A stretch of DNA of 64,000 bases, from the IMG/VR virus record IMGVR_UViG_3300022921_001386, one strand, 5' to 3'. Made by a program: the position numbers and the translations under genes. A model generated the notes under the pieces. It had not been told where the DNA came from. It ran no database searches and saw nothing but the letters and a program-made list of their open reading frames with translations. Positions within the stretch are counted from its first letter, which is position 1; every line of letters begins with the position of its first letter. Shown piece after piece: positions 8,567-46,023 of this stretch. This DNA is from a virus.

Positions 8567-9265
8567 TTATTCAAATCCCCATTTTTTTTCTCGACACCAC
8601 CAACATAATCCACATTCCCTTTTTTCATAAGTAGCAGTAGGATCTACGCACGATTTTGTTAACTTATATAATGATTCCATTAAGTTTTCTTGTTTATAAA
8701 TCTTTGCTATGTCGCGCTTGTTTGTGTTTATCCACGGTTTATACAGAACATTTCCATATATAGTTTTGGATAGTCTTGGCTCAATACAAACATTTCTATA
8801 TTGATCTGCGCCGTTTTCTAACCCGTGCAGGTTCATTTCTTCATTTGGTGGGTTAGCTGTTACTGCATTAACAAATGTTAATATATTATTTTGTTCTCTA
8901 ACTTTCTTAAGAGCCGCCATTAGCTGAAAATATTTTGATAATCCTTCTATTGACGAAAAAGTAAAGTTATCAAATTGATCCTTAGCTTTTTTAAACCAAA
9001 AAGTATCATTAGTGTCAAATCTATATGTTTCGTGCTTTCCTATGTTAGCATCAGGAAATCTTTTACGCATAAATTTTAAAATATCATAAGCACAAAGTAT
9101 GTCTGCAGGATTACATGCATCATCACCTGAAAACGGAACAATATAAGTTTTTGGAAAGTGTTTGCAAATTAAATAAAATAATATTGCAGAATCTAATCCG
9201 CCTGATAACATTAATATAACTTGCTTAGGTGGTCCATCTGGAAAATCATCTTTTGTAAAAATCAT
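8567..9265 (-). CDS. QueC-like PP-loop ATP pyrophosphatase (copy 1)
   Basis: LSGGLDS PP-loop; TKSC...CGLCWWC Zn site. Confidence 0.8.
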   Translation of the reverse strand: MIFTKDDFPDGPPKQVILMLSGGLDSAILFYLICKHFPKTYIVPFSGDDACNPADILCAYDILKFMRKRFPDANIGKHETYRFDTNDTFWFKKAKDQFDNFTFSSIEGLSKYFQLMAALKKVREQNNILTFVNAVTANPPNEEMNLHGLENGADQYRNVCIEPRLSKTIYGNVLYKPWINTNKRDIAKIYKQENLMESLYKLTKSCVDPTATYEKRECGLCWWCREKKWGFE

Positions 9266-9266
9266 T

Positions 9267-9944
9267 TTAATATCCTATTAAAGATGGTACAATAATATTT
9301 CTATCTAACACTGTAATTTTCATCCAGTTAAATCCGTCTGTTAGTCCATCTTCTATAGATAACTGAAATCTAGAATATTTTTTTATAGACTTTTTAAGTT
9401 CGACCGTATCAAATACAGACCATAGCATGTTATCGTTATTTGTAATATACGAAACTTTATTGCTGCGTATTTTTTTCATTTGTTTTTCTGAAACATCTAT
9501 TGTTCTGTGCGTATTATGAAGTATATCAAATATTTTTTGATTAGATGGATCGATATATGTAAAATATACATATGTAGATATGGTACATAGGTTTTCTACA
9601 CAATAAAGTAGTTCTTCTAAGTTATGATGAGTAAATACACTGTTAGCAAACGAAATATCAAATATTCCAATATTTGGAAATGTTTCTGTTTTACTACCAG
9701 CAGGATTATATATAGAATGGTATCTGTTCCAATAAACTACATTTGCAGCCGGGTGTTCATTTAAAAGAGCATTCAATGAATCCTTACTTACGTCCATACA
9801 AGTATAGTTTTTTTCATGGATTTTGCCGTTGCTATAACTAATTAGATTACCTCGGTTTCCTCCAAAGTCTAATATTTTTTTATTTTTGTAATCAGTTACA
9901 AACTGATCAAATATATTAAACACATTAAGTTTTTTAAATATCAT
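9267..9944 (-). CDS. Class I SAM-dependent methyltransferase
   Basis: ILDFGGNRG motif I, CMDVS motif II, FD...ANSVFTH. Confidence 0.8.
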   Translation of the reverse strand: MIFKKLNVFNIFDQFVTDYKNKKILDFGGNRGNLISYSNGKIHEKNYTCMDVSKDSLNALLNEHPAANVVYWNRYHSIYNPAGSKTETFPNIGIFDISFANSVFTHHNLEELLYCVENLCTISTYVYFTYIDPSNQKIFDILHNTHRTIDVSEKQMKKIRSNKVSYITNNDNMLWSVFDTVELKKSIKKYSRFQLSIEDGLTDGFNWMKITVLDRNIIVPSLIGY

Positions 9945-10519
9945 GGTAATATATCTGCTACTAAATGAATACGATCAATATTACTAGCATTTAACGCAGT
10001 ATGATTTCCTTTATCTGTATGAGCAAATGTCCATTGATCTTTTGGTAAATGGTATACTTCATCTTCGATAATCATAAGACAAGCCTCGTTGGTTTGTATT
10101 GGATAATGTATACGAGGAATTGGATCTATATGCCAATTCATACAAGTATACGGTTTTGATTTTAATAGACGCACTCTACCGACAGTGTATTTTGTTTCTA
10201 ATACACAATAGGCGTGATTAAACAATGTGCCTTTAAAAACATCACACAGCTCCCAGTCGTATACTGACTTTGGAGACATTGGTATTCTAACATCTCCTTC
10301 TGGTGTAAGTCTAATAAAGAAATCAGACTTGCCTTTATCTGCAAAGTAACCAGCCCCAAAGCTATAATCATCTGTATAGCCTGGTGCGGCATTTAAACAT
10401 ATCTGTTGAGCGCTGTGTGGATTAGAAGGTTTGAACCATTCTAAATTTAAGTTGTCTAATTCTTCTAACAGACCTTCGACTATCGGTAAGTTTATTGTAT
10501 CATAATGAATCAATGCCAA
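9941..10519 (-). CDS. Aspartyl/asparaginyl beta-hydroxylase-like 2OG-Fe(II) dioxygenase
   Basis: WHID..PRIHYPIQTN ... HTALN ... RIHLV; paralog of 2696-3250. Confidence 0.8.
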   Translation of the reverse strand: MALIHYDTINLPIVEGLLEELDNLNLEWFKPSNPHSAQQICLNAAPGYTDDYSFGAGYFADKGKSDFFIRLTPEGDVRIPMSPKSVYDWELCDVFKGTLFNHAYCVLETKYTVGRVRLLKSKPYTCMNWHIDPIPRIHYPIQTNEACLMIIEDEVYHLPKDQWTFAHTDKGNHTALNASNIDRIHLVADILP

Positions 10520-12575
10520 ATAAATCTCCTTCTTTGCCGTTGATTGCTTCTAATACTTCGTCATAACTTTTATCAAAAATTGCTAGTTTAAAAAGTACTC
10601 TTTCATTATATGTTTGTACACTGTGCTCTTCTTGTACATTAAGCAAAGCACCTTCATAATAGACATCGATATCTTCGTTCCAGGATATAGGACTATTCCA
10701 TGTTATAGGACCGTCGCCATCTAGTATTATATTTAAAGCAGTTATTGTTCCATGATCACGATGAGGAGATAGGTAACTATCTCCGTCTTGTATATAATAC
10801 CTAGGAACAGCTTTGCAACCAATAATAGAACTAACATGATTTGCTATACTATTTGCTACGTTACAATTAGACATATCGTCTTGTCTAATCACACGAAGAT
10901 GATCAATGCTTTTTGTTTCGTGCTCGTTGGAAGCAGTAAATACTTTAGCAAGTGACTTGTTTTCATAAAACTCTTTTCTTAATTTAGATTTTAAATCTTG
11001 GTTAACCGATAAGTTTTTCATATATCTTATATTAGGTTCGGGCTTCTTTATTTCTAAAAGGTTTTCAACTTTTGAATAATAAGATTTTTCTAAAAAATGC
11101 CGTGCTTTACGACGAGGCTCGGCACTTGTAAATAATTCAGTAAATGTCATTTTTCTAAGTTCTTCGAATGAATATCCAAGACACTGATAAAACATTAAAA
11201 AGAAGGTAGAAACTTTAATATCATCGATAAAATCTTTTGTAAGTACTTTTACGTATTCAACAGCCTCGTCACTATCCCAATCTTTAGTACGCCATTTGTT
11301 TTGCTTTTCATCATCAGTATATACTGTATAGCCAAACTTTTCTGGATTTTTTGAAAGCTCAGATGCTGTGCCGAGCTCTAATGGGCTAAAAGAAAAAGCA
11401 TCAAACAGATCTTTGTTTTTAATAACATCCTTAGTCCAAACATCCATTGTTTCTTTACTATCATAAGGCAACCCAGCAATAAAGCTACCGTAAACACTTA
11501 ACGATCCATCAAATACTTCTCGAGATTTTCTGATTGTTTCAAAAATTGTTGCGCTAGGACAACCCTTTCCGATTGTCTTGGCTGACTCATAATTCAACGA
11601 TTCAACACCGAGAAACCAAGAACACACATTGATTTTTTTAAGTAGTTCTAGTTGCTCTGGCCATTTTGCTACAAGATCAATACGTATAAATGCCGAAAAC
11701 TGTAGTTGTTCTGGTAGATTAATTTCTTCTATGGCATCTGCAATAGCTTGTAGCTTAACAGTCTGCTCATTAAATGTATCATCGATAATTATATACTTTG
11801 TAGTGCCATATAACTCATAGTTTTGTTTTAATTCGTGTTTGATACATTCTTTATCTCTTAAAAAAGATTGATCGCCTTTTTTCTTTCCTATCAATGGATA
11901 AGCACAAAACTTACATTTAAAAATGCATCCACGGCCAAATTCGATACCCATAGCTTCTTCCGCACTCCAAAAGTCCTCTGGAATATAGTTTACTTTTGTA
12001 TTTCTAAAATCAAATAACGCTCCTTTTTGATCATAATCAAATATATAGGGAGTAGTTCCGAGATTGGCATTATAGTTAAGATCTGTACCATTTTTTAAGT
12101 GATTAGTAATATTTAATGCAGTATGTTCGCCCATTCCAACTACATAATAATCTATTTCATTTTTAACTTCTTCGGCTCGATGATATGACATACTGCCGCC
12201 GTATACAGTTTTTACACCTTTGGTATATCGAATATAATCAGTCATTTTTCTAATATCTTCGTCTTCAGTAGGCCAGCGCCAAAGAATATTTTTTTTATTA
12301 GTATCTCGTGTATGTCGTTTGGTATATACTTCGTTACTCTTTCTCATAAACAACGAAGAACTAAATCCAACCCATAGTGTGTTATCACCGATTAACTTGT
12401 CAAGAATTTGTTTAATCATTCCGTTTTTAATCCAATGTGAAAAGTTATTTAATACAAAAACACTATATCCTTCATTGCGTAAAGCAGATGCAATTTTATA
12501 GCCGCCGATTCCCCGTGCTACATTAAATACCGGGTCGCTGCCTTCAGTCATGATTATAACATCATATGTTTTCAT
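10500..12575 (-). CDS. Cobalamin-binding-type radical SAM enzyme with fused C-terminal 2OG-Fe(II) oxygenase-like domain
   Basis: N-terminal VGFS/YGG/G.GE B12-domain pattern; GRGCIFKCKFC, DDTFN, GVES, FIAGLP; C-terminal PHRD...HSV...RVLFK. Confidence 0.8.
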   Translation of the reverse strand: MKTYDVIIMTEGSDPVFNVARGIGGYKIASALRNEGYSVFVLNNFSHWIKNGMIKQILDKLIGDNTLWVGFSSSLFMRKSNEVYTKRHTRDTNKKNILWRWPTEDEDIRKMTDYIRYTKGVKTVYGGSMSYHRAEEVKNEIDYYVVGMGEHTALNITNHLKNGTDLNYNANLGTTPYIFDYDQKGALFDFRNTKVNYIPEDFWSAEEAMGIEFGRGCIFKCKFCAYPLIGKKKGDQSFLRDKECIKHELKQNYELYGTTKYIIIDDTFNEQTVKLQAIADAIEEINLPEQLQFSAFIRIDLVAKWPEQLELLKKINVCSWFLGVESLNYESAKTIGKGCPSATIFETIRKSREVFDGSLSVYGSFIAGLPYDSKETMDVWTKDVIKNKDLFDAFSFSPLELGTASELSKNPEKFGYTVYTDDEKQNKWRTKDWDSDEAVEYVKVLTKDFIDDIKVSTFFLMFYQCLGYSFEELRKMTFTELFTSAEPRRKARHFLEKSYYSKVENLLEIKKPEPNIRYMKNLSVNQDLKSKLRKEFYENKSLAKVFTASNEHETKSIDHLRVIRQDDMSNCNVANSIANHVSSIIGCKAVPRYYIQDGDSYLSPHRDHGTITALNIILDGDGPITWNSPISWNEDIDVYYEGALLNVQEEHSVQTYNERVLFKLAIFDKSYDEVLEAINGKEGDLFGIDSL

Positions 12576-12576
12576 A

Positions 12577-13344
12577 TTATCCTTTCCTTGGATTATTAAA
12601 GTCTACTGGAGTGCCGTTTCTTCCAATGTAGAATAATATTCCGTCTTGTTCTATTACTTGATCTTGTGTATTAAACCAGTTGTCCCCATATACAGATATA
12701 TCACCTTTTACTAATAATCTATTTTCTTTGTCTATCTTATAATCACAGTTAAATATATTACCGAGTACAGTAGAGTTAGCAGGCGTAATATCTTTAAGTG
12801 CATACACTTCTTCTATGTTATTAAATATATGCATAATGGCATTTACTCCAACTTCGGTCATTCCCCATATACATATTACTCGAGCACCTCGATTGATAAA
12901 ACCTTCAATAATATCATACGTGACGGGCTCAGATCCTACTAAAAATGTTTTGCCGGTTAAGTCAAGTGTTTTAAATCCCTTTGTTAACATAACACCCTTT
13001 GCTTGCTTTGGGGTTAAATGTGTATGAGTATATCTATCTGCTACTTTAGTATATTTATATAGATTAAATTTATCAAAGTTAACTGTTGCACCAGCTATCA
13101 ATCCTGGAATAGATTGGGCAAACAATCCTCCAGCACGCTCTAAACTTAAACAAGTGTATATAGAACTATGCACATTAATATCCTGAACTTGGATTGCACA
13201 TTTGGCATCTGCTACTATTTTACTTGGGGGCTGATATATCTCTTTTGGAACTCCGGATGTACCCGATGTTTTAATAGTTATGCCATTTACAATAATATGT
13301 TCTAATTTATCAATCAAAGTAATGAAATCCAAACTCTTGGTCAA
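12577..13344 (-). CDS. Truncated/minimal AMP-binding (ANL superfamily) adenylate-forming enzyme; start uncertain
   Basis: TSGTSGVPK (A3), WGMTE (A5), WFNTQD (A7), YIGR (A8); no C-terminal subdomain. Confidence 0.75.
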   Translation of the reverse strand: MTKSLDFITLIDKLEHIIVNGITIKTSGTSGVPKEIYQPPSKIVADAKCAIQVQDINVHSSIYTCLSLERAGGLFAQSIPGLIAGATVNFDKFNLYKYTKVADRYTHTHLTPKQAKGVMLTKGFKTLDLTGKTFLVGSEPVTYDIIEGFINRGARVICIWGMTEVGVNAIMHIFNNIEEVYALKDITPANSTVLGNIFNCDYKIDKENRLLVKGDISVYGDNWFNTQDQVIEQDGILFYIGRNGTPVDFNNPRKG

Positions 13345-14497
13345 CGTATTTTAAAACGTGATGACCCATGAACCGTTCAGTAATAGTTTTAAACATTTCG
13401 TCGTTTTGCCCTTTTACATATCGTTTCAATACATCAGTCTTTTCTATACGTTCAGCAGATGTTTTCTTTGCCCAGTCCCAAAATTCGTTTTTGTATATAG
13501 AGCCTCCATGATAGATTAAGTTAATTAAATCTTCTACTGCACGATAGTTTAAAATACATAGCTCGTTTGCTCGAGAGCCGTTAATTTCGCCTCGTATATA
13601 ATCAGAAAGTATTTGACAGTTTTTAACAGCCATATACAACGAATTTGCACTCATTGGTTCAAAGAACACTGCACAGTTTCCATTTTTTAATAAACGTTGG
13701 TCAACTGTCTTCTTACAATAATATGGTTTTAAATCAAATGTACGGAAGTTTTTTGTATCTGCATCTGTTGCATCTGTGATACGAATAAGTTCCTTTTCAG
13801 CTTCTTCACGTGTACAAAACTCACTGTTGTACAGGAAGCCATGAGATGTCCTATGTTGTAATGGAATAACAAACATCCATCCATACTTATGAGCAACATG
13901 ACGTGTGAATCCAAAATCAGATGGTGTTGGATCATCATATACCAAAGCAGAGTTTAGAACAAGGTTACATTCATTGTAATCAGTAAAATCTGTCGGTCTA
14001 CCTCGACAATCGATAATATAATCAAATATGTGCAGTTTTCCGTCTACGGTTAGTTCGCCGCCTCTTGATTCGTTAGTATAATCAGTAAAACTTTGCGATA
14101 CTCTTTCTACGTTACCGTGTAATACAGTATAACTATTATATAATTTTTTTAAGCGTTCCATGCCCATTTTAACAAAATCTTTTGCATCAAAATGGATAGC
14201 ATGATATCCTGATTGAAAAGGAAAAATAATATCTTTCTCTCTCCAATCAATGTAATGTGTGCCGTACTTAGTTGTGCTGTTGAGTTCTTTTGCTTCTGTT
14301 GCAAATATGAAATCAAATGCCTGACCAATAGCAAAGGTTACTTCTGACGTTGTACTCTCACCTACTCCGAGGATAGGCTTACTTGGATCATATACATGGG
14401 TAAGCTCTAACTCAATTTCACGATTTTTAAAATCTTTAAGTAAACAGCCTGCAGTTAATACCCCTGCACTTCCAGCACCTAATATAGCAATCTTCAT
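13310..14497 (-). CDS. Flavin-dependent tryptophan-halogenase-family protein
   Basis: GAGSAG, GVGEST, TTKYG, IDCRG, GWMFVIPL, FFEPMSAN. Confidence 0.8.
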   Translation of the reverse strand: MKIAILGAGSAGVLTAGCLLKDFKNREIELELTHVYDPSKPILGVGESTTSEVTFAIGQAFDFIFATEAKELNSTTKYGTHYIDWREKDIIFPFQSGYHAIHFDAKDFVKMGMERLKKLYNSYTVLHGNVERVSQSFTDYTNESRGGELTVDGKLHIFDYIIDCRGRPTDFTDYNECNLVLNSALVYDDPTPSDFGFTRHVAHKYGWMFVIPLQHRTSHGFLYNSEFCTREEAEKELIRITDATDADTKNFRTFDLKPYYCKKTVDQRLLKNGNCAVFFEPMSANSLYMAVKNCQILSDYIRGEINGSRANELCILNYRAVEDLINLIYHGGSIYKNEFWDWAKKTSAERIEKTDVLKRYVKGQNDEMFKTITERFMGHHVLKYVDQEFGFHYFD

Positions 14498-15013
14498 TTA
14501 AATCTCCGGGTTTATCTTACAATATTCTTTTATATTTAGTTTCCATATATTTTGTTCGGTATCAAAAACCTTTTGACACCCTAGATGTTCTACTATTTGT
14601 TTTTTTTCAAGTATGTGATAAAGTTTGTTTAACTTTAACATTTTGCCGCTGTGGTCAGTTTCGGTATTAGTTGTTATGTATATAGGCTTATTGCTGTACA
14701 TATTAATTACTATAGGCAAGTGATAGCGAAACATCCAACAATTCATATGATTCTTACTTAATCCGCCAGGAATTGAATAAAGTTGACATCCTCTAAATAA
14801 TGCTCGTATACCGTTGAGGAATGGATGTACTCCGCTTATGCCAACAATTTTAGTATTATGAAAAGTGGCGAACCAGTTTCCGCCAATACGTAATGTGTTA
14901 TTAAATTTCATAGACTCTAGGCTATTGTTATTATTGTAATTCATCCTATCACATTCATTAATGAATTCTAATAACTGCAAGGTAGGTTTAGATATAATCC
15001 TTGTTTCTATCAC
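14498..15013 (-). CDS. GNAT-like acyltransferase
   Basis: KIVGISGVH strand, PIYITTN; paralog of 40929-41516. Confidence 0.55.
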   Translation of the reverse strand: MIETRIISKPTLQLLEFINECDRMNYNNNNSLESMKFNNTLRIGGNWFATFHNTKIVGISGVHPFLNGIRALFRGCQLYSIPGGLSKNHMNCWMFRYHLPIVINMYSNKPIYITTNTETDHSGKMLKLNKLYHILEKKQIVEHLGCQKVFDTEQNIWKLNIKEYCKINPEI

Positions 15014-17374: not shown

Positions 17375-17403
17375 ATTATACCATATTATTAGCAATAAGT
17401 CAA
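17375..17403 (-). promoter_or_regulatory. Sigma70-type promoter, leaderless
   Basis: TTGACT-17 bp-TATAAT with TGn extension; ATG only 5 nt after -10, no RBS. Confidence 0.75.
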
Positions 17404-18617: not shown

Positions 18618-18635
18618 TTAATAAAATTCCAAATG

Positions 18636-24579: not shown

Positions 24580-24580
24580 A

Positions 24581-36852: not shown

Positions 36853-36858
36853 ACAGTA

Positions 36859-36887
36859 GTTATAACATATTTTAATCAACAAGTCAA
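36859..36887 (-). promoter_or_regulatory. Sigma70-type promoter, leaderless
   Basis: TTGACT-17 bp-TATAAC with TGn; ATG 6 nt after -10. Confidence 0.7.
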
Positions 36888-36898
36888 GAACAGAATGT

Positions 36899-36906
36899 GA
36901 TAAATA
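36899..36906 (+). promoter_or_regulatory. Late-promoter-like GATAAATA
   Basis: Precedes GAGG RBS and ATG at 36930. Confidence 0.65.
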
Positions 36907-36929
36907 CTAGAGAAGAGGAACCAACAAAC

Positions 36930-38345: not shown

Positions 38346-38360
38346 AATATATGTTATAGT
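38332..38360 (+). promoter_or_regulatory. Sigma70-type promoter
   Basis: TTGACT-17 bp-TATAGT with TGn, then AGGAG and GTG at 38385. Confidence 0.7.
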
Positions 38361-38384
38361 TAAAAAAAGATCATAGGAGCACAA

Positions 38385-39443: not shown

Positions 39444-40936
39444 GAATAATAGTTTTAGGTGCCGGAACAGCTGGTGCGATTGCTGCAGGTATCATAAAAA
39501 AACGCAGACCTGATATTGAAGTTTTACAAATTCACAGTGAACAAGTTGGTATTATCGGAGTCGGCGAAAGTGTTACTCCTTATTTAAATCATGCATTCCA
39601 CGAACTTGGTATGGTTGAAAAAGATTGGATGACTGCAACTGGTAGTATGTACAAACTAGGAAACAAGTTTGAAGGATGGACAGACGAAGATCATTACTTT
39701 GCATTTACATACAACAAGCCTATTGATAAACTTATTAATAATAAACCTATAGACTGGAATGATATCAAAAGTATAAACGAAACTGATATTAGACTTACTG
39801 ACGTATGGTGTGATTTGTACAATCAAGGAATGGTAAACAACTTTAGTGCAAGTTTTAATGATTTGCACAATTCATTAGTCGACAATACATTTGATTTTAA
39901 GTTACTTGATCGCACTTGTCTCAACTACAGTTATCATATTAATGCAGAAAAACTTGCACCTTACATAAGAAAAAATATTAATAATAAACTTGGTGTAATA
40001 GAAATAGAAGGTAAAGTTGTCAAAGTTAATACCAACGACAACGGTGTACACAGTGTTGAGATGGAAAACGGAGAAGTATATACGTCCGATTACTGGTTTG
40101 ATTGCAGTGGATTTAATAGATTACTAATCAACGAACTTGACGATAGCTTTCATACATACGACTATTGTAAAGCAAATAGTGCAGTAGTAATGCCAATAGA
40201 ATATACTTCGCAAGACCAACTAACAAATCATACTAGAACTATTTGGTTAGAACAAGGATGGCAGTTTAAAATAGGATTAACCGAACGTATCGGAACTGGT
40301 ATTATTTACAGTGATGAATATTTTAGCGATGAAGAAATAAAACAACTATTGTTAGAAAAAGAAAATCATAAAAACATCCGGCCACCAAAAATACTAAAAT
40401 GGACGCCTGGTAGAATGGTCAATCCTGCTATAGATAATGTGTTTAGTATAGGAATGGCAGCAGGATTCTGCGAGCCAATGGAAGCAAATGCGTTATACAT
40501 TACAATGGCAACTATTAAAAGAGCATTACACAGTATTAACCAAGACGAAAATAGAAATACATTTAACAAAGTTATCAATCATACACTAGACGATACTGCA
40601 TTTTTTATTGCCGCACATTATACACTTTGTGAAAAAGGTAATAACGCATACTGGAATGATATGCGTGAAATAGGTATAAAACAAAATCACAAGCAACTAT
40701 TACTGGAAAAGTACAACGATGTAAAAAATAATATGGAAAGTGCTGTAAATCATTATACAATGTATCCAGATTACATGTGGATGGAACTAGCATCGGCATG
40801 GTGTAAAGACATTAGTACTTGGAGTAAAAATACAGATCCTAGACTACAGCAGCAAGTTTTAGAATATTTTAGAAAATCAAAAAGTATCACAACCAATCAA
40901 TATCCAGAAGAAATGAGGAAGTTTCATAATGTATAG
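39440..40936 (+). CDS. Flavin-dependent tryptophan-halogenase-family protein
   Basis: GAGTAG, IGVGES, YKLGNKFEGW, FDCSGF, GWQFKIGL.ERIGTG, GFCEPMEAN. Confidence 0.85.
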   Translation: MRIIVLGAGTAGAIAAGIIKKRRPDIEVLQIHSEQVGIIGVGESVTPYLNHAFHELGMVEKDWMTATGSMYKLGNKFEGWTDEDHYFAFTYNKPIDKLINNKPIDWNDIKSINETDIRLTDVWCDLYNQGMVNNFSASFNDLHNSLVDNTFDFKLLDRTCLNYSYHINAEKLAPYIRKNINNKLGVIEIEGKVVKVNTNDNGVHSVEMENGEVYTSDYWFDCSGFNRLLINELDDSFHTYDYCKANSAVVMPIEYTSQDQLTNHTRTIWLEQGWQFKIGLTERIGTGIIYSDEYFSDEEIKQLLLEKENHKNIRPPKILKWTPGRMVNPAIDNVFSIGMAAGFCEPMEANALYITMATIKRALHSINQDENRNTFNKVINHTLDDTAFFIAAHYTLCEKGNNAYWNDMREIGIKQNHKQLLLEKYNDVKNNMESAVNHYTMYPDYMWMELASAWCKDISTWSKNTDPRLQQQVLEYFRKSKSITTNQYPEEMRKFHNV

Positions 40937-41516
40937 ATTTGAAATATACAACGGCACACAAGATTTAACACAATGGTATAAGGATGCCGAAGAAAAAGGT
41001 TACTATAATAATAGCAACAAAGAGATGCTTGTTGACTGGGTTGAAAAACATGAAGACGCAACACTGTTTTTGTTGTACTACAATGAACATATTGTAGGCA
41101 ATAGTGTTGTTCATAGTTTAAAAGAGCTGGGAATACTTGGTAAAAATGCATATCGCATTGGCGCAAGAACTTGTTTGATTAGAGACAGAATTGACGGTGG
41201 CAGAGTTTATGCTCCAGCTAATGGCCCAGTAAATCATCATACTGTGCAAATGTTACTTCCTATATGTATCGAACATGTAGGAAGAGACAAGCCTGTGTAT
41301 ATTAGTACACACGAAGGCGGAGTGGGAAGTCAAGACCGTGTACACAAAGTGTGGACATATTTTACAAACAAACTAGGCATCACCGGTGACAGCATTGATT
41401 TAGAATACAAAGGTGCATTCCAAACTTTTAGACGGATTGATGTTGATAGGATGTATGATTTACTAAAAGAAGCAAGATGGCCCGAGGCAGAGCAAGCTAT
41501 TCCACTGTTTAGTTAA
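40929..41516 (+). CDS. GNAT-like acyltransferase
   Basis: HIVGNSVVH strand, RIGART, PVYISTH; paralog of 14498-15013. Confidence 0.55.
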   Translation: MYRFEIYNGTQDLTQWYKDAEEKGYYNNSNKEMLVDWVEKHEDATLFLLYYNEHIVGNSVVHSLKELGILGKNAYRIGARTCLIRDRIDGGRVYAPANGPVNHHTVQMLLPICIEHVGRDKPVYISTHEGGVGSQDRVHKVWTYFTNKLGITGDSIDLEYKGAFQTFRRIDVDRMYDLLKEARWPEAEQAIPLFS

Positions 41517-42886
41517 ACGTATTTCTTACAAAGTTCAAAAAAGTCTGACATCTCTGGAAAAACTTGTTCATGATCTACATTACGTCTACGACCTTGCTCT
41601 TCAAAGAAGTTGTGAAAATCTCTACGTCCTTGAATAACTTTATCTAATGGATATTCAGTAGACTCCATGTAATCAACAACACGTCTAAACTTTTCATACT
41701 CAATAGTACTAAACGCATCTTTGCGATTATCATCTGTATTCTCTTTGATAAACTGCAAATGATCATGCATATAACTCATGTAGTTTTTAGGCAGGATATT
41801 AATATCGTACTGCAACGGTTCTTTCAAATGCGGTGTGTCAAATCCTAATCGTTGCCATCTGTGCGTTTCTACATCATTATATTTTTTGCGCCATTCAAGA
41901 ATCTTTTCAAGCAATGTACGGAATGTAGTGACACTGAAGATGTTAAATGTAATCATAATAACCATCGGTGCTTCGCAGTTGCGCATAAAATAATCCAAGT
42001 TGCGTTCAAACACTTCAATGTCTAATCCATCACGAATATACTCAGCACGTTTTCCCCAAGTATCAATACTTGTAAACATTTTAAAACGTCTAATCTTGTT
42101 GTTTGTCAACAAGTCATTCACACGGTTTGTAAACTTTTCTAACTGTTTTGGTTTGCCGCCTAAGTTGCTGTTGCAGTTTAGTTCTAAATCTGGTTTAGGG
42201 TCTGCATCCAGCATATCAAATAGTTTATATGTGCTCTGCTGTATTGTAGGCTCGCCGCCTGTAATGCGTAAAATATGTAAGTCTTTACTTAACTCTGGCC
42301 ACCACTTCCAAAATGCATCTAAATACGGATTGTTTTGTTCTTCAAATATTTCAAACCAGTCAATATCACATCTGTGATTCTTTACGTTTGTGTAAGGACC
42401 ATGTTGCTTTATCTCTTGGTGATATCTACTGCTGGCTTTTGGATGACAATATCCACATCTAAAGTTACACTCATTACCGAAGCTGACCTCTAAGTATTCA
42501 GGATTAACATCAAACTCTGCGCCACCTTCTTTAACAGCCTTTAAGCGTTCTTTAAAGAAGATAGTTTGGTTGCGTTGTTTTCTATCGCTAACATAATCTT
42601 TGCCCATTGCTTCAATCTTCCAGCAATAGTTACATCCGCTAGGTTGCTCGCCTTTCATCATAGCAGCACGTTCTGCTTTTTTCTGTACTGTATTATGAAT
42701 AGCACTCGGATTAGTTAGAAGTGGCGCTGCATCAATCTTGTGCGGTGCAGGATGATAACAACTGTGTGTTTCGCCTGTTTGAAAATATATATTAGCATGG
42801 TACCATTTAGCAAAACAAAACGTAGGAGAAATCTCTTGCGTTATTTTGTCAATACGTTTGATTTCTTCGCTTTCACTGCGTTCCAT
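41513..42886 (-). CDS. Radical SAM enzyme with N-terminal twitch-like domain
   Basis: FCFAKW...SCYH...CNYC; CNFRCGYC; TGGEPT. Confidence 0.9.
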   Translation of the reverse strand: MERSESEEIKRIDKITQEISPTFCFAKWYHANIYFQTGETHSCYHPAPHKIDAAPLLTNPSAIHNTVQKKAERAAMMKGEQPSGCNYCWKIEAMGKDYVSDRKQRNQTIFFKERLKAVKEGGAEFDVNPEYLEVSFGNECNFRCGYCHPKASSRYHQEIKQHGPYTNVKNHRCDIDWFEIFEEQNNPYLDAFWKWWPELSKDLHILRITGGEPTIQQSTYKLFDMLDADPKPDLELNCNSNLGGKPKQLEKFTNRVNDLLTNNKIRRFKMFTSIDTWGKRAEYIRDGLDIEVFERNLDYFMRNCEAPMVIMITFNIFSVTTFRTLLEKILEWRKKYNDVETHRWQRLGFDTPHLKEPLQYDINILPKNYMSYMHDHLQFIKENTDDNRKDAFSTIEYEKFRRVVDYMESTEYPLDKVIQGRRDFHNFFEEQGRRRNVDHEQVFPEMSDFFELCKKYV

Positions 42887-43815
42887 TATTGTTCTCTATC
42901 TAAAAATTGTTTGCTGTTATCTCTTATTGGATTTTGGTACACTGTTTTGAAGAACTTACTTCCGCCTGCATCAAAGGGAGTCATTGCGATTGGAATATCA
43001 AGAGCGTTGATTAATTTGTCACCGTAATCTTCAGTTGCTTCTAACAAGTTTTCTTCGTCAACAGTAACTTCTAAATTTTTCCACATATTGTTTAGGTATT
43101 CAAAGTCGCGCACATTGATAAAATCCCAGTCTGTGAGCATTGTCATATACAACCCTTGACGAGCGCCATAGATACCCCACATGCCATTTTCTACATCAGC
43201 GCCAACCATAAGCCAGATATACAAACGATGCAAGTTTTTCCAATGATTTTTATGGAAGTCTTCTACACTAACACGCATACCTTGGTCCAGTGCCATTTTA
43301 ACACCTTCTCTAAATCCAGCACGCCATGCTTGATGCGGTGTAGCATTATTCATGATAGTACTATATGTACCATTCATCTGAATATATTGTGTATCCCAAC
43401 AAAAATCTACTTGTGCATGTGGGTTATTATCAGGCGCATTTTCGTGTGTACGCATGTTCAATACATGCTGTTTAGGCCAGCACTTGATCCCACCGTTACC
43501 GTATGTAAGATTATTAATAGTATTACGGGCTGTCCAACTAATCACTTTGTTTGTTAAGTCTGTGTTTTCATCAAAGTCCATTGCCTGTGTTAAAAACTTT
43601 TCATCGATGATGTTGTCGCCGTCAATGGTGATAAATCGATCTGTAGTTGATTTATTAGCTGCTGCCTTATGGGCACTATCACTGCCTTTTACACCATGTA
43701 CACGTTCTGCCCACGGAACTTTCTTGCATAAATCTGCATAGTTTTGTTCTGCATTTGGCTCATCGTAGCTTAGATATATAATGTCACAATCTATAACTCT
43801 AAAAGTATTAGCCAT
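42886..43815 (-). CDS. Glycosyltransferase (GT-A-like), paralog of the C-terminal domain of 35209-36852
   Basis: LSYDEPNA, GVKGSD.AH, IDGD, YGNGGIKCWP, AWRAGFREGVKM. Confidence 0.7.
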   Translation of the reverse strand: MANTFRVIDCDIIYLSYDEPNAEQNYADLCKKVPWAERVHGVKGSDSAHKAAANKSTTDRFITIDGDNIIDEKFLTQAMDFDENTDLTNKVISWTARNTINNLTYGNGGIKCWPKQHVLNMRTHENAPDNNPHAQVDFCWDTQYIQMNGTYSTIMNNATPHQAWRAGFREGVKMALDQGMRVSVEDFHKNHWKNLHRLYIWLMVGADVENGMWGIYGARQGLYMTMLTDWDFINVRDFEYLNNMWKNLEVTVDEENLLEATEDYGDKLINALDIPIAMTPFDAGGSKFFKTVYQNPIRDNSKQFLDREQ

Positions 43816-44350
43816 TTATTTCCTCATAATGATATGTATCGAACCTACGCATAGTATATACGGAAACTTCCTCATTGTCAAACTCAAAATCATTTTCAAA
43901 TGCAACTTCATCTGAATCAACAAATCTTATCAATCTGTATAGTACATTAGGATCATCTTTTTTGGTTATACTAAAATAATAGTTTGAAAGATTTATGTTA
44001 ACGTTTTTGTCTTTGAGATCTAATAAAAAATCAGAGTCTGCAGATATTCTCCAAACATTTTTTGTATTATCTTTTGAAAGGATTATCTGCGGGTTGTCTG
44101 GAATAGTTGCAGAGATTTGATATAAAAAACTCCACATTAGTTTATCTTCATCAACCTGTGTTTGATTTTTAATATGATAAGTTTTATCAATAAAATCATA
44201 TTCAACTTTATAGTCTAATAAACTCCAATGTCCTTCAATAAACTTTTTAACGTCTTCAAAATCGCATTCAATAAACTTGAATCTATCATCAGATTCTTTT
44301 GATATCTTATAGATGTTTCCGTCATCATCAAAACATACAAATCTTTTCAT
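43808..44350 (-). CDS. Hypothetical protein
   Basis: 180-aa ORF coupled within the GT operon. Confidence 0.7.
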   Translation of the reverse strand: MKRFVCFDDDGNIYKISKESDDRFKFIECDFEDVKKFIEGHWSLLDYKVEYDFIDKTYHIKNQTQVDEDKLMWSFLYQISATIPDNPQIILSKDNTKNVWRISADSDFLLDLKDKNVNINLSNYYFSITKKDDPNVLYRLIRFVDSDEVAFENDFEFDNEEVSVYTMRRFDTYHYEEING

Positions 44351-44351
44351 A

Positions 44352-45194
44352 TTATATTCCCAAACACTTTTCGTATTTTTTCATTAGATTAATATTTAAG
44401 AAATCTTTTTCAGTGTAATGAAAAATACCCGACTGTTGATGATTTCCTATTTTTAGCCTCATGTCGCTATCAAAATAAACTCCAACTCTATCTTGCCAAC
44501 GATATGCAAAGTTAACATCCCAGCCTTGTATCTTTGGTTTCATATGTGTAAATGTAGGATTTTTAACTTTGTTATTTGTAATCAAATGTTCTATATCCAT
44601 TGTTTTACAAGCAATTGCTGCACTAACATCCATACTTGGTCGCAATGCAAACTTTTTGCCGGTGCCTGCTGATTTATAAAACTGTTCCCAGTTATTTGTT
44701 ATCATTTCAAGCCAAGTATAAAATTCGTGTGCTAAATCTGATTTCTTAAACCAATGGAACCCGCTGTACAAGTTTGGAAGATTGTGTGTTTTAAATGCCT
44801 TGCGGTAATAGTTATCATCTACTAGTTCTCCGCGATATGTATAAACATTACTAGTATAAAACAGATCGTAGTTTCTTAAAAAATCAAACCAACTGCTAAT
44901 ATCTTCAAGTATTAACATATCTGTGTCTATTACCACAGTTTCATTATAAGGAATAGCATGATATATTTTCCAACGATTACTGATTTTCCAATCTTCGTCT
45001 TTGGCGTGATCTCCCCACGGTATTTCTACAATATGATCAAACAAATGTTTGTATTTTGTAGGCACACTTTCATTGGTAATAAGACAAATACTAACATCTT
45101 TGTTTGTAGCATGAATACTCATTGCTGCTAAACATGCTTGTCTAACATAATCAAAATCACTATTTTGTGCCAACATTGTAAAGTTATTGGTCAA
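44352..45194 (-). CDS. Glycosyltransferase (GT8-like fold)
   Basis: A.SI, FDHIV, PYNETVVIDTD (DxD), late His motifs. Confidence 0.7.
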   Translation of the reverse strand: MTNNFTMLAQNSDFDYVRQACLAAMSIHATNKDVSICLITNESVPTKYKHLFDHIVEIPWGDHAKDEDWKISNRWKIYHAIPYNETVVIDTDMLILEDISSWFDFLRNYDLFYTSNVYTYRGELVDDNYYRKAFKTHNLPNLYSGFHWFKKSDLAHEFYTWLEMITNNWEQFYKSAGTGKKFALRPSMDVSAAIACKTMDIEHLITNNKVKNPTFTHMKPKIQGWDVNFAYRWQDRVGVYFDSDMRLKIGNHQQSGIFHYTEKDFLNINLMKKYEKCLGI

Positions 45195-46023
45195 TAATTC
45201 TCTCCAAACTAAACTTGTTCATCACATGACAGTTACTGCCTTTGAGATTTACACCAGTATATTCTCCAAGTCTTCTATTTTTTTGTACTAATATTTTTAT
45301 TTCATCGTCTTTGATATCAACAGCTACATCTTTATCTGTTGCATAAAACTTGGTACCTGGCAAACTTCCAACAAAGTTTCCTTTTTGATATCCATTCATA
45401 ATATGTACTGCAATACTAAAAGCAAAATCGTTTCTATACACACTTGTTTTAAACTGATACATATTACGATAATGTATATAGTTTTCTTCAATATGTTTGA
45501 TTAAGTTAAAGAATATTTTATTTTCTTCTGTTTTTCTAAAAAAGAAAACAGTAGCCCAATAAAAATCAATACTAGTATCACTTACTTTTTCAAACTCGGG
45601 TACTATTGTATGCATACCAATATGTGTAGCATCTTTGTATAGCAAAAGATCTTTTTGCTGTACAAAGCAATTATTTAATAAATCATTGCTAATAATATAA
45701 TCAGTATCCATTACAATAGTAGAATCATAAGGAGTTAAATCATATGCTGATGCTCTATTTTTATTATTAAACTTTAATGTTTTATCACTAAAGTCACCAT
45801 CGGCATATCGCTTGTTAGTACTATTTCTGTTCATATCATTGGAATGAATGACATAATCAAATACATCAACATCATTTGGATACATAGATTGAATATCTGT
45901 ATCTGTAACAATCGAAGTGGGTAAATCCATATACTTGCTTATACGTTTAGCAAGGAAAATAGCTTGCTTTACATAATCAATCGATTTATTATTACTTGCA
46001 AATAACAGTACACCTTTTGTCAT
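45184..46023 (-). CDS. Glycosyltransferase (GT8-like fold), paralog of adjacent gene
   Basis: FDYVI, TPYDSTIVMDTDY, RNDFAFSIA, HVMNK. Confidence 0.7.
   Translation of the reverse strand: MTKGVLLFASNNKSIDYVKQAIFLAKRISKYMDLPTSIVTDTDIQSMYPNDVDVFDYVIHSNDMNRNSTNKRYADGDFSDKTLKFNNKNRASAYDLTPYDSTIVMDTDYIISNDLLNNCFVQQKDLLLYKDATHIGMHTIVPEFEKVSDTSIDFYWATVFFFRKTEENKIFFNLIKHIEENYIHYRNMYQFKTSVYRNDFAFSIAVHIMNGYQKGNFVGSLPGTKFYATDKDVAVDIKDDEIKILVQKNRRLGEYTGVNLKGSNCHVMNKFSLERIIDQ

What the first reader, a model, noticed from the sequence alone, without database searches (positions are those of the whole stretch)
8567..46023. Phage-encoded ~37-kb tailoring-enzyme supercluster embedded in the tail-fibre region: candidate virion glycosylation/decoration system
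Seen: 32 enzyme genes (14 radical SAM, 4 QueC-like, 4 GT, 2 halogenase-family, 2 adenylating, 2 GNAT, 2 methyltransferase, P450, 2OG oxygenase, SDR), mostly translationally coupled and flanked by and interleaved with Ser/Thr-rich fibre genes. No PKS/NRPS scaffold, carrier protein, transporter or DNA-insertion enzyme (DpdA/TGT) is in the window. Known: some mycobacteriophages and giant viruses glycosylate their own virion proteins, and twitch radical SAMs such as BtrN oxidise sugars. Inference: the GTs build a glycan on fibres or baseplate, and paralogous enzymes oxidise, amidate, methylate and acylate it to give a variable chemical coat. Alternatives are DNA hypermodification or a diffusible metabolite.
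Basis: partly seen in the sequence, partly recalled or inferred. Interest (0 to 1): 0.95.

Follow-up and report, generated by a model that had tools for sequence, protein, structure and literature searches.

The report
Phage fibre-linked radical-SAM tailoring island
An uncultured salt-marsh jumbo phage carries, among its tail-fibre genes, a real 37-kb block of soluble enzymes (14 radical-SAM enzymes, four QueC-like ligases, four sugar transferases and others). Its fixed core also sits behind the fibres of a cultured Ralstonia phage, and the rest is swapped cassette by cassette between near-identical phages. It most likely builds a variable sugar-type decoration, but nobody has tested what it makes.

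Summary
Window 8567-46367 is gene-dense: 24 of 34 same-strand junctions overlap. It holds 14 radical SAM genes, all with CxxxCxxC and eight with an N-terminal 4-Cys 'twitch' domain. It also holds four QueC-family paralogs, two halogenase-family genes, two truncated adenylating genes, a P450, a 2OG hydroxylase and four GT-A-like genes. One GT-A-like gene folds as GT8. No island protein has a membrane segment.

The block is phage DNA. It recurs in 156 IMG/VR contigs and in independent runs, and shared genes are under purifying selection (pN/pS about 0.1). It is modular. A core (46020, 45184, 44352, 43808, 42886, N-twitch rSAM 41513, 35209, 34182) is syntenic behind the giant virion protein and fibres of cultured Ralstonia phage RsoM2USA. 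The rest varies from 7 to about 20 rSAM genes among relatives. Two cassettes are replaced in a relative about 96% identical in shared DNA.

My best reading (0.4) is a cytoplasmic glycan-type tailoring pathway that decorates virion tail or fibre proteins. Rivals are DNA or nucleotide hypermodification, direct fibre modification, host-surface remodelling and a free metabolite.

Related contigs encode FolE, QueE-like, QueD and YhhQ but no canonical QueC, so CDG conjugation by the QueC-like enzymes stays open.

This scan has reported the same kind of island on at least eight other genomes. The literature describes analogous 'host recognition clusters'.

The parts
8567..9265 (-). QueC-family PP-loop protein, the most QueC-like of the four paralogs. 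It lies in a cassette that is absent from the nearest relative G001.
   Evidence: Pfam QueC 34 bits. SGGLDS and C(x)13CxxCxxC present; YxQxHxxE, VPxRN and YPDC absent. Window 8009-16263 is replaced in G001.
9267..10519 (-). Methyltransferase-like gene (9267-9944) and Asp/Asn-hydroxylase-type 2OG oxygenase (9941-10519).
   Evidence: Methyltransf_12 at 28.7 bits, just under the cut-off. Asp_Arg_Hydrox at 25.3 bits, over the cut-off. 9941 is a paralog of 2696-3250, which sits before fibre gene 3309.
10500..12575 (-). B12-binding radical SAM protein (691 aa) with an extra C-terminal domain.
   Evidence: Radical_SAM 55.7 bits plus a B12-binding hit. Weak NCBIfam hits to B12-rSAM methyltransferases. 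CxxxCxxC at residue 217.
12577..15013 (-). Triad copy 1: short adenylating enzyme (12577-13344), halogenase-family flavoprotein (13310-14497) and a small protein (14498-15013).
   Evidence: AMP-binding 42 bits; Trp_halogenase 109 bits. 14498 is a weak paralog of 40929 (E 9e-5) and has no family hit.
15010..16257 (-). Cytochrome P450-family protein.
   Evidence: Pfam p450 48 bits, C-terminal haem region only.
16254..17369 (-). 'Anchor' radical SAM gene, conserved between the two exchangeable cassettes.
   Evidence: Radical_SAM 55 bits. 95% aa identity in G001, 91% in G005, 83% in G002. A sigma70-like site lies just upstream at 17403-17375 (not enriched overall).
17400..23485 (-). Exchangeable cassette. 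It holds an N-twitch-like rSAM (17400), a 'WDLGRRC' rSAM (18636), a QueC-like gene (19882) and N-twitch rSAMs (20773, 22103).
   Evidence: Window 17406-23436 is replaced in G001 by other DNA that carries paralogs of about 45% aa identity. Orthologs at 50% identity or more are nearly absent from 80 related loci.
23443..33978 (-). Array shared with G001. In order: N-twitch rSAM 23443, SDR-like 24581, rSAM 25119, QueC-like 26263, N-twitch 27080, QueC-like 28407, N-twitch 29272, rSAM-C 30666, N-twitch 31727, rSAM-C 32899.
   Evidence: NF033640 scores 420 bits for 29272. 94-99% aa identity to G001, with dN/dS 0-0.24. An ortholog of 29272 occurs in 156 IMG/VR contigs.
34182..36882 (-). Core genes: 34182 (unknown function, tandem N-terminal repeats) and 35209 (C-terminal GT2-like domain).
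   Evidence: The C-terminal parts are conserved in RsoM2USA ORF347 and ORF348 (31% and 44% identity) and in G001, G002 and G005. Glyco_tranf_2_3 scores 19.9 bits, below the cut-off. 35209 is a paralog of 42886.
36897..38345 (+). Fibre-like gene embedded in the island.
   Evidence: Gly/Ser/Thr-rich repeats. The C-terminal 41 aa are shared with fibre 3309. PHROG hits cover only that tip.
38385..41516 (+). Triad copy 2: short adenylating enzyme (38385), flavin-dependent halogenase-family enzyme (39440) and a small protein (40929).
   Evidence: AMP-binding 69 bits; Trp_halogenase 241 bits. PDB matches to Th-Hal, RebH and VirX1 keep the catalytic Lys and Glu, but WxWxIP reads WQFKIG. The whole + strand cassette, with a fibre gene, is present in G005 and absent in G002.
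41513..42886 (-). Core N-terminal-twitch radical SAM gene.
   Evidence: NF033640 299 bits. 34% identity to RsoM2USA ORF349 at the syntenic position between the two GT2-like genes.
42886..46367 (-). Core operon next to the fibres: GT2-like 42886, small 43808, GT8-like 44352, GT8-like paralog 45184, small 46020.
   Evidence: The 44352 model has pLDDT 85.9. Foldseek matches are glycogenin, LARGE1, LgtC, UGGT and GlyE (E about 1e-8). D90 and D92 are invariant in 23 homologs. Atlas neighbours are named GT2-like or nucleotide-diphospho-sugar transferases. The operon is syntenic in RsoM2USA, G001, G002 and G005.
46421..54596 (-). Right-flank tail-fibre and baseplate-type genes. These are context, not enzymes.
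   Evidence: PHROG tail-fibre and tail-protein hits. Tail collar and Gp10_C domains in 52012.
54623..64000 (-). Giant structural protein of more than 3125 aa. It runs off the window.
   Evidence: FG-GAP repeat. Homolog of RsoM2USA ORF361, a virion protein confirmed by mass spectrometry.
2696..8005 (+). Left flank: a second Asp/Asn-hydroxylase-type gene (2696), then fibre genes (3309 with Mtd_N; 5003 with a C-terminal subtilase domain).

Best explanation
The block is a hypervariable tailoring island inside the tail-fibre module of an uncultured jumbo myophage. It has two layers.

(1) A conserved core sits directly behind the fibre genes. It consists of two GT8-like and two GT2-like glycosyltransferases, one N-terminal-twitch radical SAM enzyme, the 34182-family protein and two small proteins. 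I infer that it uses nucleotide sugars to build a short glycan on a cytoplasmic acceptor, most likely tail or fibre proteins before assembly.

(2) Exchangeable cassettes of soluble enzymes edit that product. They hold N-twitch, 'rSAM-C' and 'WDLGRRC' radical SAMs, QueC-like ATP-dependent carboxylate-amine ligases or amidases, hydroxylases, a P450, B12-rSAM methylases, and adenylase + halogenase-family + small-protein triads. I infer that they edit the sugar units or append groups. Closely related phages would then display chemically different decorations.

Shown: the gene content, the GT8 fold, the QueC-family fold, the core-versus-cassette structure, the synteny with virion genes, purifying selection, and the lack of membrane or export parts.

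Inferred: the glycan, the acceptor and every individual reaction.
For: - Position. In the window, G001, G002, G005 and cultured phage RsoM2USA the core lies directly next to the fibre genes and the giant virion protein. RsoM2USA ORF361 is a virion protein by mass spectrometry (PMC8504454).
- GT. 44352 folds as a GT8-type GT-A with an invariant DxD. Its best structural neighbours include protein-glycosylating GT8 enzymes (glycogenin, UGGT, GlyE) as well as LgtC.
- Core rSAM. The core N-twitch rSAM 41513 sits between the two GT2-like genes, also in RsoM2USA.
- Independence from deazaguanine genes. RsoM2USA has the core but no FolE and no DSGGFQ protein.
- Cytoplasmic pathway. No island protein has a transmembrane segment, and there is no flippase, polymerase or transporter.
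- Sugar supply. A GalE-like epimerase and MetK are encoded nearby in relatives.
- Fibre-linked enzymes. Hydroxylase genes of the protein-modifying Asp_Arg_Hydrox family sit next to fibre genes. One fibre gene travels with an enzyme cassette.
- Diversification. Cassettes are replaced between genomes about 96% identical in shared DNA. rSAM counts run from 7 to about 20. dS along the island ranges from 0.007 to 0.94, while pN/pS is about 0.1.
- Analogues. Similar fibre-module islands with sugar enzymes are annotated in Pelagibacter phage Mosig and described as host recognition clusters (PMC7029224).
Against: - No glycosylated virion protein has been shown for this lineage.
- No radical SAM or QueC-like enzyme here has a characterised sugar-acting relative. 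NCBIfam hits other than NF033640 are far below their cut-offs.
- Cassettes are swapped while the fibre genes stay 96-99% identical, so enzyme and fibre variation are not coupled over short times.
- All QueC-family enzymes with the Zn site that have been characterised act on 7-carboxy-7-deazaguanine (PMC13329287). Related contigs make that compound's pathway next door.
- The best sigma70-like sites precede the core operon. If real, they would fit early rather than late expression.
- GT-A enzymes can also glycosylate DNA bases or lipids.
Confidence: 0.4

Rival explanations
1. DNA or nucleotide hypermodification. The island makes and varies a modified base, either a 7-deazaguanine derivative or a glycosylated base, that protects phage DNA from restriction. 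The QueC-like paralogs convert phage-made 7-carboxy-7-deazaguanine into different amides. The radical SAMs and GTs elaborate them.
For: - Related contigs carry FolE, a QueE-like rSAM, a YhhQ-type preQ0 transporter, a PRTase-like gene, PRPP synthetase and MetK 5-20 kb upstream of the island. QueD lies elsewhere, and there is no canonical QueC.
- A conserved 517-aa protein carries the TGT-type DSGGFQ motif.
- The QueC-like proteins keep the PP-loop and the Zn site.
- Cassette turnover fits an arms race with restriction systems.
- CP220-type Campylobacter phages pair a QueD-like gene and rSAM arrays with two GT-A genes.
Against: - The GT plus N-twitch core exists in RsoM2USA, which has neither FolE nor the DSGGFQ protein.
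- The DSGGFQ protein matches no TGT or DpdA model and no solved structure by sequence.
- The QueC-like proteins lack all three substrate motifs of canonical QueC.
- The ThyA homolog looks canonical (about 340 bits), so nothing points to hydroxymethyl-pyrimidine DNA.
- The island sits in the fibre module, not with the replication genes.
Confidence: 0.2
2. Direct, RiPP-like post-translational modification of fibre or other virion proteins without a glycan. The SPASM/twitch-type radical SAMs would make cross-links or epimerise residues, the hydroxylases would hydroxylate Asp/Asn, and the QueC-like enzymes would amidate or conjugate side chains or termini.
For: - SPASM/twitch radical SAMs are mostly peptide- or protein-modifying. 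Weak NCBIfam hits go to PapB, SkfB, HxsB and others.
- Asp_Arg_Hydrox genes sit next to fibre genes.
- Cap9 and QatC show that QueC-family enzymes can modify protein N-termini.
- One distant N-twitch homolog is fused to TPR repeats.
- A bacterial cluster combines N-twitch rSAMs, an Asp_Arg_Hydrox gene and a beta-helix protein.
Against: - Four conserved GT-A-type genes form the core.
- No RRE domain or precursor-like small ORF was seen, and the genes are packed without room for one.
- All peptide-maturase hits are far below their family cut-offs.
Confidence: 0.13
3. Remodelling of the host cell surface or host metabolism during infection. This would be superinfection exclusion or receptor masking, as proposed for glycosyltransferases in pelagimyophage host recognition clusters.
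For: - This is the interpretation proposed in the literature for analogous islands (PMC7029224).
- LgtC-type GT8 enzymes act on lipooligosaccharide.
- PF05118 also includes lipid A hydroxylases (established knowledge).
- Sigma70-like sites precede the core operon.
Against: - There are no membrane-anchored GTs, flippase, polymerase or lipid-carrier enzymes. All island proteins are predicted soluble.
- The strict link to fibre genes persists across distant hosts (salt-marsh lineage and Ralstonia phage).
Confidence: 0.12
4. Biosynthesis of a free small molecule, for example a modified nucleoside or an aryl-amino-acid derivative, that is used against host defences or competitors.
For: - The enzyme palette is typical of natural-product clusters: P450, halogenase family, adenylating enzymes, B12-rSAM and many rSAMs.
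- PRPP synthetase and a PRTase-like gene lie nearby in relatives.
Against: - There is no scaffold synthase, carrier protein or exporter.
- The adenylating enzymes are truncated.
- The conserved part is the GT core beside virion genes.
Confidence: 0.1

Closest known systems
Host recognition cluster (HRC) / hyperplastic fibre-module island of pelagimyophages and cyanomyophages (Zaragoza-Solas et al. 2020, PMC7029224; e.g. Pelagibacter phage Mosig MT647606)
   Same: A large non-syntenic island between the tail-fibre genes and a giant structural protein (VrlC there). It holds glycosyltransferases, Asp/Asn hydroxylases, methyltransferases and radical SAM cassettes that come and go between close relatives.
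   Different: - The host genomes there are about 140-200-kb T4-like Kyanoviridae. Here the phage is a jumbo phage of roughly 350 kb related to RsoM2USA and PA5oct.
- The rSAM load here is far higher (14 in the window; up to 13 NF033640 copies in a relative).
- QueC-like paralogs and N-twitch rSAM modules are not described there.
- Similarity to the Mosig rSAMs is marginal.
Ralstonia phage RsoM2USA ORF347-354 (MG752970; PMC8504454)
   Same: Syntenic homologs of 46020, 45184, 44352, 42886, 41513, 35209 and 34182 lie directly behind the fibre genes and the giant virion protein ORF361 (31-45% aa identity).
   Different: - RsoM2USA has only the core, with no rSAM array, halogenase or P450 cassettes there.
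- All these ORFs are annotated as hypothetical.
- RsoM2USA has no FolE.
Campylobacter phages CP220/CPt10 radical SAM modules (Timms et al. 2010, PMC2853527)
   Same: These phages have 11-12 rSAM genes. They include an interchangeable module of five rSAMs next to baseplate genes, followed by two nucleotide-diphospho-sugar transferases, with a QueD-like gene nearby.
   Different: - Only marginal sequence similarity (21-24% identity, E about 1e-5).
- An amidinotransferase is present instead of QueC-like ligases.
- No N-twitch family members were detected by tblastn.
NCBIfam NF033640, N_Twi_rSAM (twitch domain-containing radical SAM protein)
   Same: 22103, 29272 and 41513 score 299-420 bits against a cut-off of 170. 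They share the N-terminal 4-Cys domain, then CxxxCxxC and GGE.
   Different: The family has no characterised member that I could find. 17400 falls below the cut-off (138 bits).
QueC family: QueC (preQ0 synthase), Cap9 (type IV CBASS) and QatC (PMC13329287; Wassarman et al. 2025)
   Same: PP-loop SGGxDS, a C-terminal Cys4 Zn-type site and PFxxxxK. The best structural matches are QueC 2pg3 and 3bl5 and Cap9 9nto.
   Different: - YxQxHxxE, VPxRN and YPDC are absent.
- The Cys spacing is longer: C(x)13-41 before CxxCxxC, not C(x)8.
- There is an N-terminal extension of about 35 aa.
- The paralogs are paired with radical SAM genes.
- Homologs are known only from viral or metagenomic contigs.
Mycobacteriophage virion glycosylation (Freeman et al. 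2023, cited in PMC12619734) and chlorovirus capsid glycans
   Same: Phage-encoded GTs lie next to structural genes. The pathway is cytoplasmic and has no export machinery.
   Different: Those systems have a few GTs and no radical SAM, QueC-like or oxidative tailoring array. Glycosylation is demonstrated there and not here.

Membership tests
Radical SAM superfamily | CxxxCxxC cluster motif and a match to PF04055 | tested here: met
   The motif is present in all 14 genes. PF04055 is at or above the gathering score in 10. The other four (20773, 30666, 31727, 41513) are supported by paralogy, and 41513 also by NF033640.
NF033640 N_Twi_rSAM | Whole-protein score above the curated cut-off (170 bits) | tested here: met
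   29272 scores 420.7, 22103 scores 379.4 and 41513 scores 299.0. 17400 scores 138.4, below the cut-off. 20773, 23443, 27080 and 31727 were not scanned individually but align with the same invariant Cys residues.
NF033640 N_Twi_rSAM | Auxiliary-cluster (twitch/SPASM-like) Cys domain on the N-terminal side of the radical SAM core | tested here: met
   C9, C27, C90 and C93 are invariant before C146, C150 and C153 in 8 paralogs. The Pfam SPASM hit lies at residues 9-94 of 29272.
Canonical QueC (preQ0 synthase, PF06508 cluster 1) | SGGxDS PP-loop and Cys4 zinc motif | tested here: met
   Both are present in all four paralogs, but the Cys spacing is C(x)13-41 before CxxCxxC instead of C(x)8.
Canonical QueC (preQ0 synthase, PF06508 cluster 1) | Substrate and catalytic motifs YxQxHxxE, VPxRN and YPDC (Libby et al. 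2026, PMC13329287) | tested here: not met
   None of the three motifs is present in any of the four paralogs. Only 8567 passes the PF06508 cut-off.
QueC-family fold (QueC/Cap9/QatC) | Structural similarity to solved QueC-family proteins | tested here: met
   The AF2 model has pLDDT 92.5. The top Foldseek hits are QueC 2pg3 (E 1.2e-6, TM by target 0.64), Cap9 9nto and QueC 3bl5. The Atlas shape neighbours are viral clusters that partly carry PF06508.
QueC-family deazaguanylation (Cap9/QatC-type) | Use of 7-carboxy-7-deazaguanine and an amine acceptor | not testable with these tools
   Only context is available. Related contigs encode FolE, QueE-like and QueD.
GT-A glycosyltransferase, GT8-like | GT-A fold with a DxD motif | tested here: met
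   The 44352 model has pLDDT 85.9. Its best PDB matches (359 hits at E <= 0.001) are GT8-type GT-A enzymes: glycogenin, LARGE1, LgtC, UGGT and GlyE. D90 and D92 are invariant. There is no Pfam hit.
GT2-like glycosyltransferase (42886, 35209) | Family-model match or fold | tested here: inconclusive
   35209 scores 19.9 bits on Glyco_tranf_2_3, below the cut-off of 27. The Atlas feature neighbours of 42886 are auto-named GT2-like but have no common Pfam family. Neither protein was folded.
Flavin-dependent halogenase | GxGxxG, catalytic Lys and Glu, and the WxWxIP motif | tested here: inconclusive
   For 39440, GxGxxG is present. Lys (yKl) and Glu (cEP) align with those of Th-Hal. WxWxIP is replaced by WQFKIG. 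For 13310, GxGxxG is present and the second motif reads WMFVIP.
Host recognition cluster (HRC) of T4-like marine myophages | Hypervariable island between fibre genes and a giant structural protein, carrying non-structural enzymes | tested here: met
Host recognition cluster (HRC) of T4-like marine myophages | Belongs to a pelagimyophage or cyanomyophage (Kyanoviridae) genome | tested here: not met
   The nearest cultured relatives are the jumbo phages RsoM2USA, PA5oct and CMSTMSU. CheckV rates a 251-kb relative as 71% complete.
Dpd-type 7-deazaguanine DNA modification | DpdA/TGT-family transglycosylase | tested here: inconclusive
   None is in the window. PF01702 finds nothing in five related records. 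A 517-aa protein with DSGGFQ exists in relatives but matches no family or PDB sequence.
Dpd-type 7-deazaguanine DNA modification | preQ0 pathway genes FolE, QueD, QueE and QueC | tested here: inconclusive
   FolE is found in 3 of 4 long relatives and QueD in 2 of 5 records. QueE-like and YhhQ genes are in G005. No canonical QueC was found. All of these lie outside the window, in related contigs.
RiPP biosynthetic cluster | Precursor peptide and RRE-containing maturase | tested here: inconclusive
   No RRE or precursor family hit. Almost no non-coding space remains. Small ORFs were not searched systematically.

The most novel reading that the evidence does not exclude
The QueC-like paralogs are a new, virus-specific branch of the QueC family. 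They would take phage-made 7-carboxy-7-deazaguanine (from FolE, QueD and QueE; no canonical QueC is found in the lineage) and ligate it to different amine acceptors on a glycan or on virion proteins. Their partner N-terminal-twitch and 'WDLGRRC' radical SAMs would prepare or further rearrange the acceptor or the adduct. The result would be a phage particle, or phage DNA, carrying exchangeable nucleobase-conjugate decorations. That would be a viral counterpart of the deazaguanylation recently found in CBASS and Qat defence, together with first functions for the uncharacterised NF033640 family.
Probability: 0.12. Interest if true: 0.9.

Novelty: new variant of a known kind. Interest (0 to 1): 0.6.

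Why it matters
Phages of this lineage are common. The island's signature gene has close orthologs in 156 IMG/VR contigs, and the window's own sequence is held by salt-marsh and marine runs. These phages spend 10% or more of a roughly 350-kb genome on an enzyme array whose product is unknown.

The array holds many copies of NF033640, a large radical SAM family with about 8,400 cluster representatives and no characterised member that I could find. It also holds a virus-only branch of the QueC family, whose known members make deazaguanine bases or attach them to proteins.

Near-identical phages differ by whole cassettes while the shared genes stay under purifying selection. The product is therefore probably 'seen' by an antagonist or a receptor. 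It could be a new axis of phage host range or of defence evasion.

The conserved core is present in a cultured phage (RsoM2USA), so the basic question of what is decorated can be tested at the bench.

Tried and rejected
- Megablast of 24 kb of the island against deposited phages found no match.
- tblastn of QueC-like 26263 against deposited phages found no match.
- A profile of the four QueC-like paralogs against PDB sequences gave only insignificant PP-loop hits. The fold search was needed instead.
- PDB sequence searches gave nothing useful for rSAM 25119, the DSGGFQ protein, 34182 and 44352.
- PHROGs and NCBIfam gave nothing for 34182, 42886, 43808, 45184, 46020, 14498 and 40929.
A scan with the fused 1417-aa homolog returned only one irrelevant Lachnospiraceae hit. 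The bacterial range of the N-twitch family therefore rests on a few metagenomic contigs.
- A 'Rosetta stone' look at fused N-twitch homologs found only rSAM-rSAM tandems and one TPR fusion. This is not informative about the substrate.
- PF01702 (TGT) found nothing in five related records.
- No Rfam family and no tRNA lie in the window.
- Sigma70-like promoter and terminator scans were not enriched over shuffles. The two intergenic sites quoted are weak leads only.
- RNA-library contigs cover the island. Contigs cannot prove transcription, strand or timing.
- Two joints in DNA contigs (17370 to 24803, and 10109 to 18517) rest on sides of only 21-30 nt. I do not count them as evidence for alternative cassettes.
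- A structure of an N-twitch rSAM was planned but not run.
- Host DNA or a misassembly is rejected.

Full report
WHAT IS THERE

The window is phage DNA. Its left end encodes a DUF2201 metallopeptidase/VWA-like protein whose relatives, at about 42% identity, are in the jumbo phages PA5oct, CMSTMSU and Phosso. Next come fibre genes with Mtd_N and subtilase domains. The right end carries tail-fibre and tail-collar genes and a giant protein of more than 3125 aa. The contig is 147,208 bp long. It comes from salt-marsh metagenomes and is also held by a marine run of 2024.

Between 8567 and 46367 every base is coding. Of 34 same-strand junctions, 24 overlap and 5 more have gaps of at most 5 nt.

Pfam, NCBIfam, paralog BLAST and motif scans confirm the following:
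- 14 radical SAM genes, all with CxxxCxxC;
- four QueC-like PP-loop proteins;
- two halogenase-family flavoproteins;
- two short AMP-binding proteins;
- a P450;
- an Asp/Asn-hydroxylase-type oxygenase;
- a B12-binding rSAM.

The 'GNAT' pair, the second methyltransferase and the 'SDR' remain unverified labels.

No island protein has a membrane segment. GC content is 30-37% across the island and 35-42% in the left flank.

THE SIGNATURE FAMILIES

Eight radical SAMs have a 4-Cys domain before the radical SAM core. Three of them score 299-420 bits on NCBIfam NF033640, against a cut-off of 170. That family is large, with 8,381 50%-identity cluster representatives at E <= 0.001. I found no paper on it. 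None of 14 control genomes has a member above the cut-off, while related phage records hold 2 to 13.

The QueC-like proteins keep SGGxDS, PFxxxxK and a Cys4 site. An AlphaFold model of 26263 (pLDDT 92.5) is closest to QueC (2pg3, 3bl5) and to Cap9. Its Atlas shape neighbours are viral clusters that partly carry PF06508. The paralogs lack the YxQxHxxE, VPxRN and YPDC motifs that Libby et al. showed to define preQ0-forming QueC (PMC13329287). Their homologs are all from metagenomic, virus-like contigs. They are therefore QueC-family ATP-dependent carboxylate activators with a remodelled substrate site, as QatC is.

Gene 44352 folds (pLDDT 85.9) as a GT8-type GT-A. Its neighbours are glycogenin, LARGE1, LgtC, UGGT and GlyE, and it has an invariant DxD. 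45184 is its weak paralog. 42886 and 35209 are GT2-like only by weak evidence.

CORE AND CASSETTES

An ortholog of 29272 at 82% identity or more occurs in 156 IMG/VR contigs. In long relatives the island occupies the same slot, but its size differs:
- G002: about 21-27 kb with 7 rSAM genes;
- the window: 37 kb with 14;
- G005: about 63 kb with about 20.

The nearest record, G001, is about 96% identical in nucleotides over the shared parts. Window 8009-16263 and 17406-23436 are replaced there by other DNA, which carries analogous genes of about 45% aa identity. G001's left cassette resembles that of G005.

Shared genes are under purifying selection (pooled pN/pS 0.096). dS jumps between neighbouring genes from 0.007 to 0.94, a recombination mosaic.

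The right-hand genes are present in all relatives, in the same order, and also in the cultured Ralstonia phage RsoM2USA. They are 46020, 45184, 44352, 43808 and 42886, with 35209 and 34182 further left; the N-twitch rSAM 41513 between them is present in G001, G005 and RsoM2USA but has no ortholog in G002. In RsoM2USA they lie directly behind the fibre genes and ORF361, a virion protein confirmed by mass spectrometry. RsoM2USA lacks the large rSAM array.

WHAT BEARS ON FUNCTION

For a virion-linked glycan:
- the constant position beside structural genes across distant hosts;
- a verified GT8-like enzyme;
- the N-twitch rSAM embedded between GT genes in the minimal core;
- the absence of any membrane or export component;
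- hydroxylase genes adjacent to fibre genes;
- one fibre gene that travels with an enzyme cassette;
- analogous fibre-module islands with sugar aminotransferase, epimerase and carbamoyltransferase genes in Pelagibacter phage Mosig, described as host recognition clusters (PMC7029224).

For a nucleobase or DNA role:
- G005 carries PRPP synthetase, a weak GT-B hit, a GalE-like epimerase, another rSAM, MetK, a PRTase-like gene, FolE, a QueE-like rSAM and a YhhQ-type preQ0 transporter 5-20 kb upstream. It also carries a highly conserved 517-aa protein with the DSGGFQ motif.
- QueD is found in G002 and G003.
- No canonical QueC is found.

Two things weaken this for the core. RsoM2USA has the core but neither FolE nor the DSGGFQ protein. 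That protein also matches no TGT or DpdA model. The QueC-like cassettes could still use phage-made CDG. Cap9 and QatC show that this scaffold can ligate CDG to amines (PMC13329287).

ThyA looks canonical, so there is no hint of hydroxymethyl-pyrimidine glycosylation.

The halogenase-family enzyme 39440 keeps the catalytic Lys and Glu but not WxWxIP.

Outside phages, a 60%-GC bacterial contig combines two N-twitch rSAMs, an rSAM-C, a long Asp_Arg_Hydrox protein, a methyltransferase and a pectate-lyase-like beta-helix protein.

VERDICT

The island is best described as a conserved glycosyltransferase plus N-twitch rSAM core with exchangeable tailoring cassettes in the fibre module.

My best reading is decoration of virion tail or fibre proteins with a variable glycan-type structure (0.4). 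The rivals are DNA or nucleotide hypermodification (0.2), direct protein modification (0.13), host-surface remodelling (0.12) and a free metabolite (0.1).

The kind is known descriptively, from the host recognition clusters and from the CP220 rSAM modules (PMC2853527). This scan has already reported the same type of island on at least eight other genomes, with similar conclusions. The features not described in the papers I found are the jumbo-phage setting, the NF033640 expansion, the virus-only QueC-like branch paired with rSAMs, and the core shared with a cultured phage.

Noticed in passing
window 54623-64000 (-): A giant ORF of more than 3125 aa that runs off the window. It has an FG-GAP repeat and a weak CBM5/12 hit. 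It is a homolog of RsoM2USA ORF361, a virion protein confirmed by mass spectrometry. Its position resembles that of VrlC in pelagimyophages.
   Followed up: partly
window 19-1233 (+): PHROG 1314 labels this protein 'HNH endonuclease'. Pfam shows a DUF2201 metallopeptidase-like domain plus a VWA-like domain instead. It is conserved in many jumbo phages (801 records).
   Followed up: partly
window 5003-8005 (+) and 3309-4991 (+): The fibre-like protein 5003 has a C-terminal subtilase (S8) domain. The fibre 3309 has an Mtd_N (major tropism determinant) N-terminal domain and is preceded by its own Asp/Asn-hydroxylase-type gene (2696-3250).
   Followed up: no
window 10500-12575 (-): The B12-binding rSAM is 691 aa long. 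It carries an extra C-terminal region of about 120 aa with an HxD...H-like pattern that suggests a fused 2OG-oxygenase-like domain.
   Followed up: no
window 34836-35021 and 36123-36576: There are in-frame tandem DNA repeats inside core genes. Three units of about 63-66 nt lie in the N-terminal part of 34182. Two 142-nt copies, 74% identical, lie in the N-terminal part of 35209. These N-terminal parts vary in length between relatives.
   Followed up: no
L092 (G005 30001-50000), upstream of the window's equivalent: The phage encodes SAM synthetase (MetK), PRPP synthetase, a PRTase-like protein, FolE, a QueE-like rSAM and a YhhQ-type preQ0/preQ1 transporter. MetK next to a genome region with 14-20 radical SAM genes looks like a cofactor supply.
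   Followed up: partly
L092:1887-3440 (+): A 517-aa protein with a TGT-like DSGGFQ motif. At least 7,800 homologs score E <= 0.001, and the best 120 are 63-88% identical. It has no Pfam or NCBIfam family and is absent from RsoM2USA. It could be a divergent DpdA- or Cap10-like enzyme.
   Followed up: partly
L115/L116 (ENA marine scaffolds): A related low-GC island encodes fused radical SAM proteins of 1417 aa and 813 aa, alongside orthologs of 29272, 32899, 16254, 34182 and a QueC-like gene. It sits next to a sodium:solute symporter gene.
   Followed up: partly
G002:C1:35597-37003: One NF033640 radical SAM gene (286 bits) lies about 130 kb away from the island in the 251-kb relative. The family is therefore not confined to the fibre module.
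   Followed up: no
window 39440-40936 (+): This is a phage halogenase-family enzyme with conserved catalytic Lys and Glu, but WQFKIG in place of WxWxIP. Its nearest phage homologs are in cyanophages, including the VirX1 family, at about 27% identity.
   Followed up: partly
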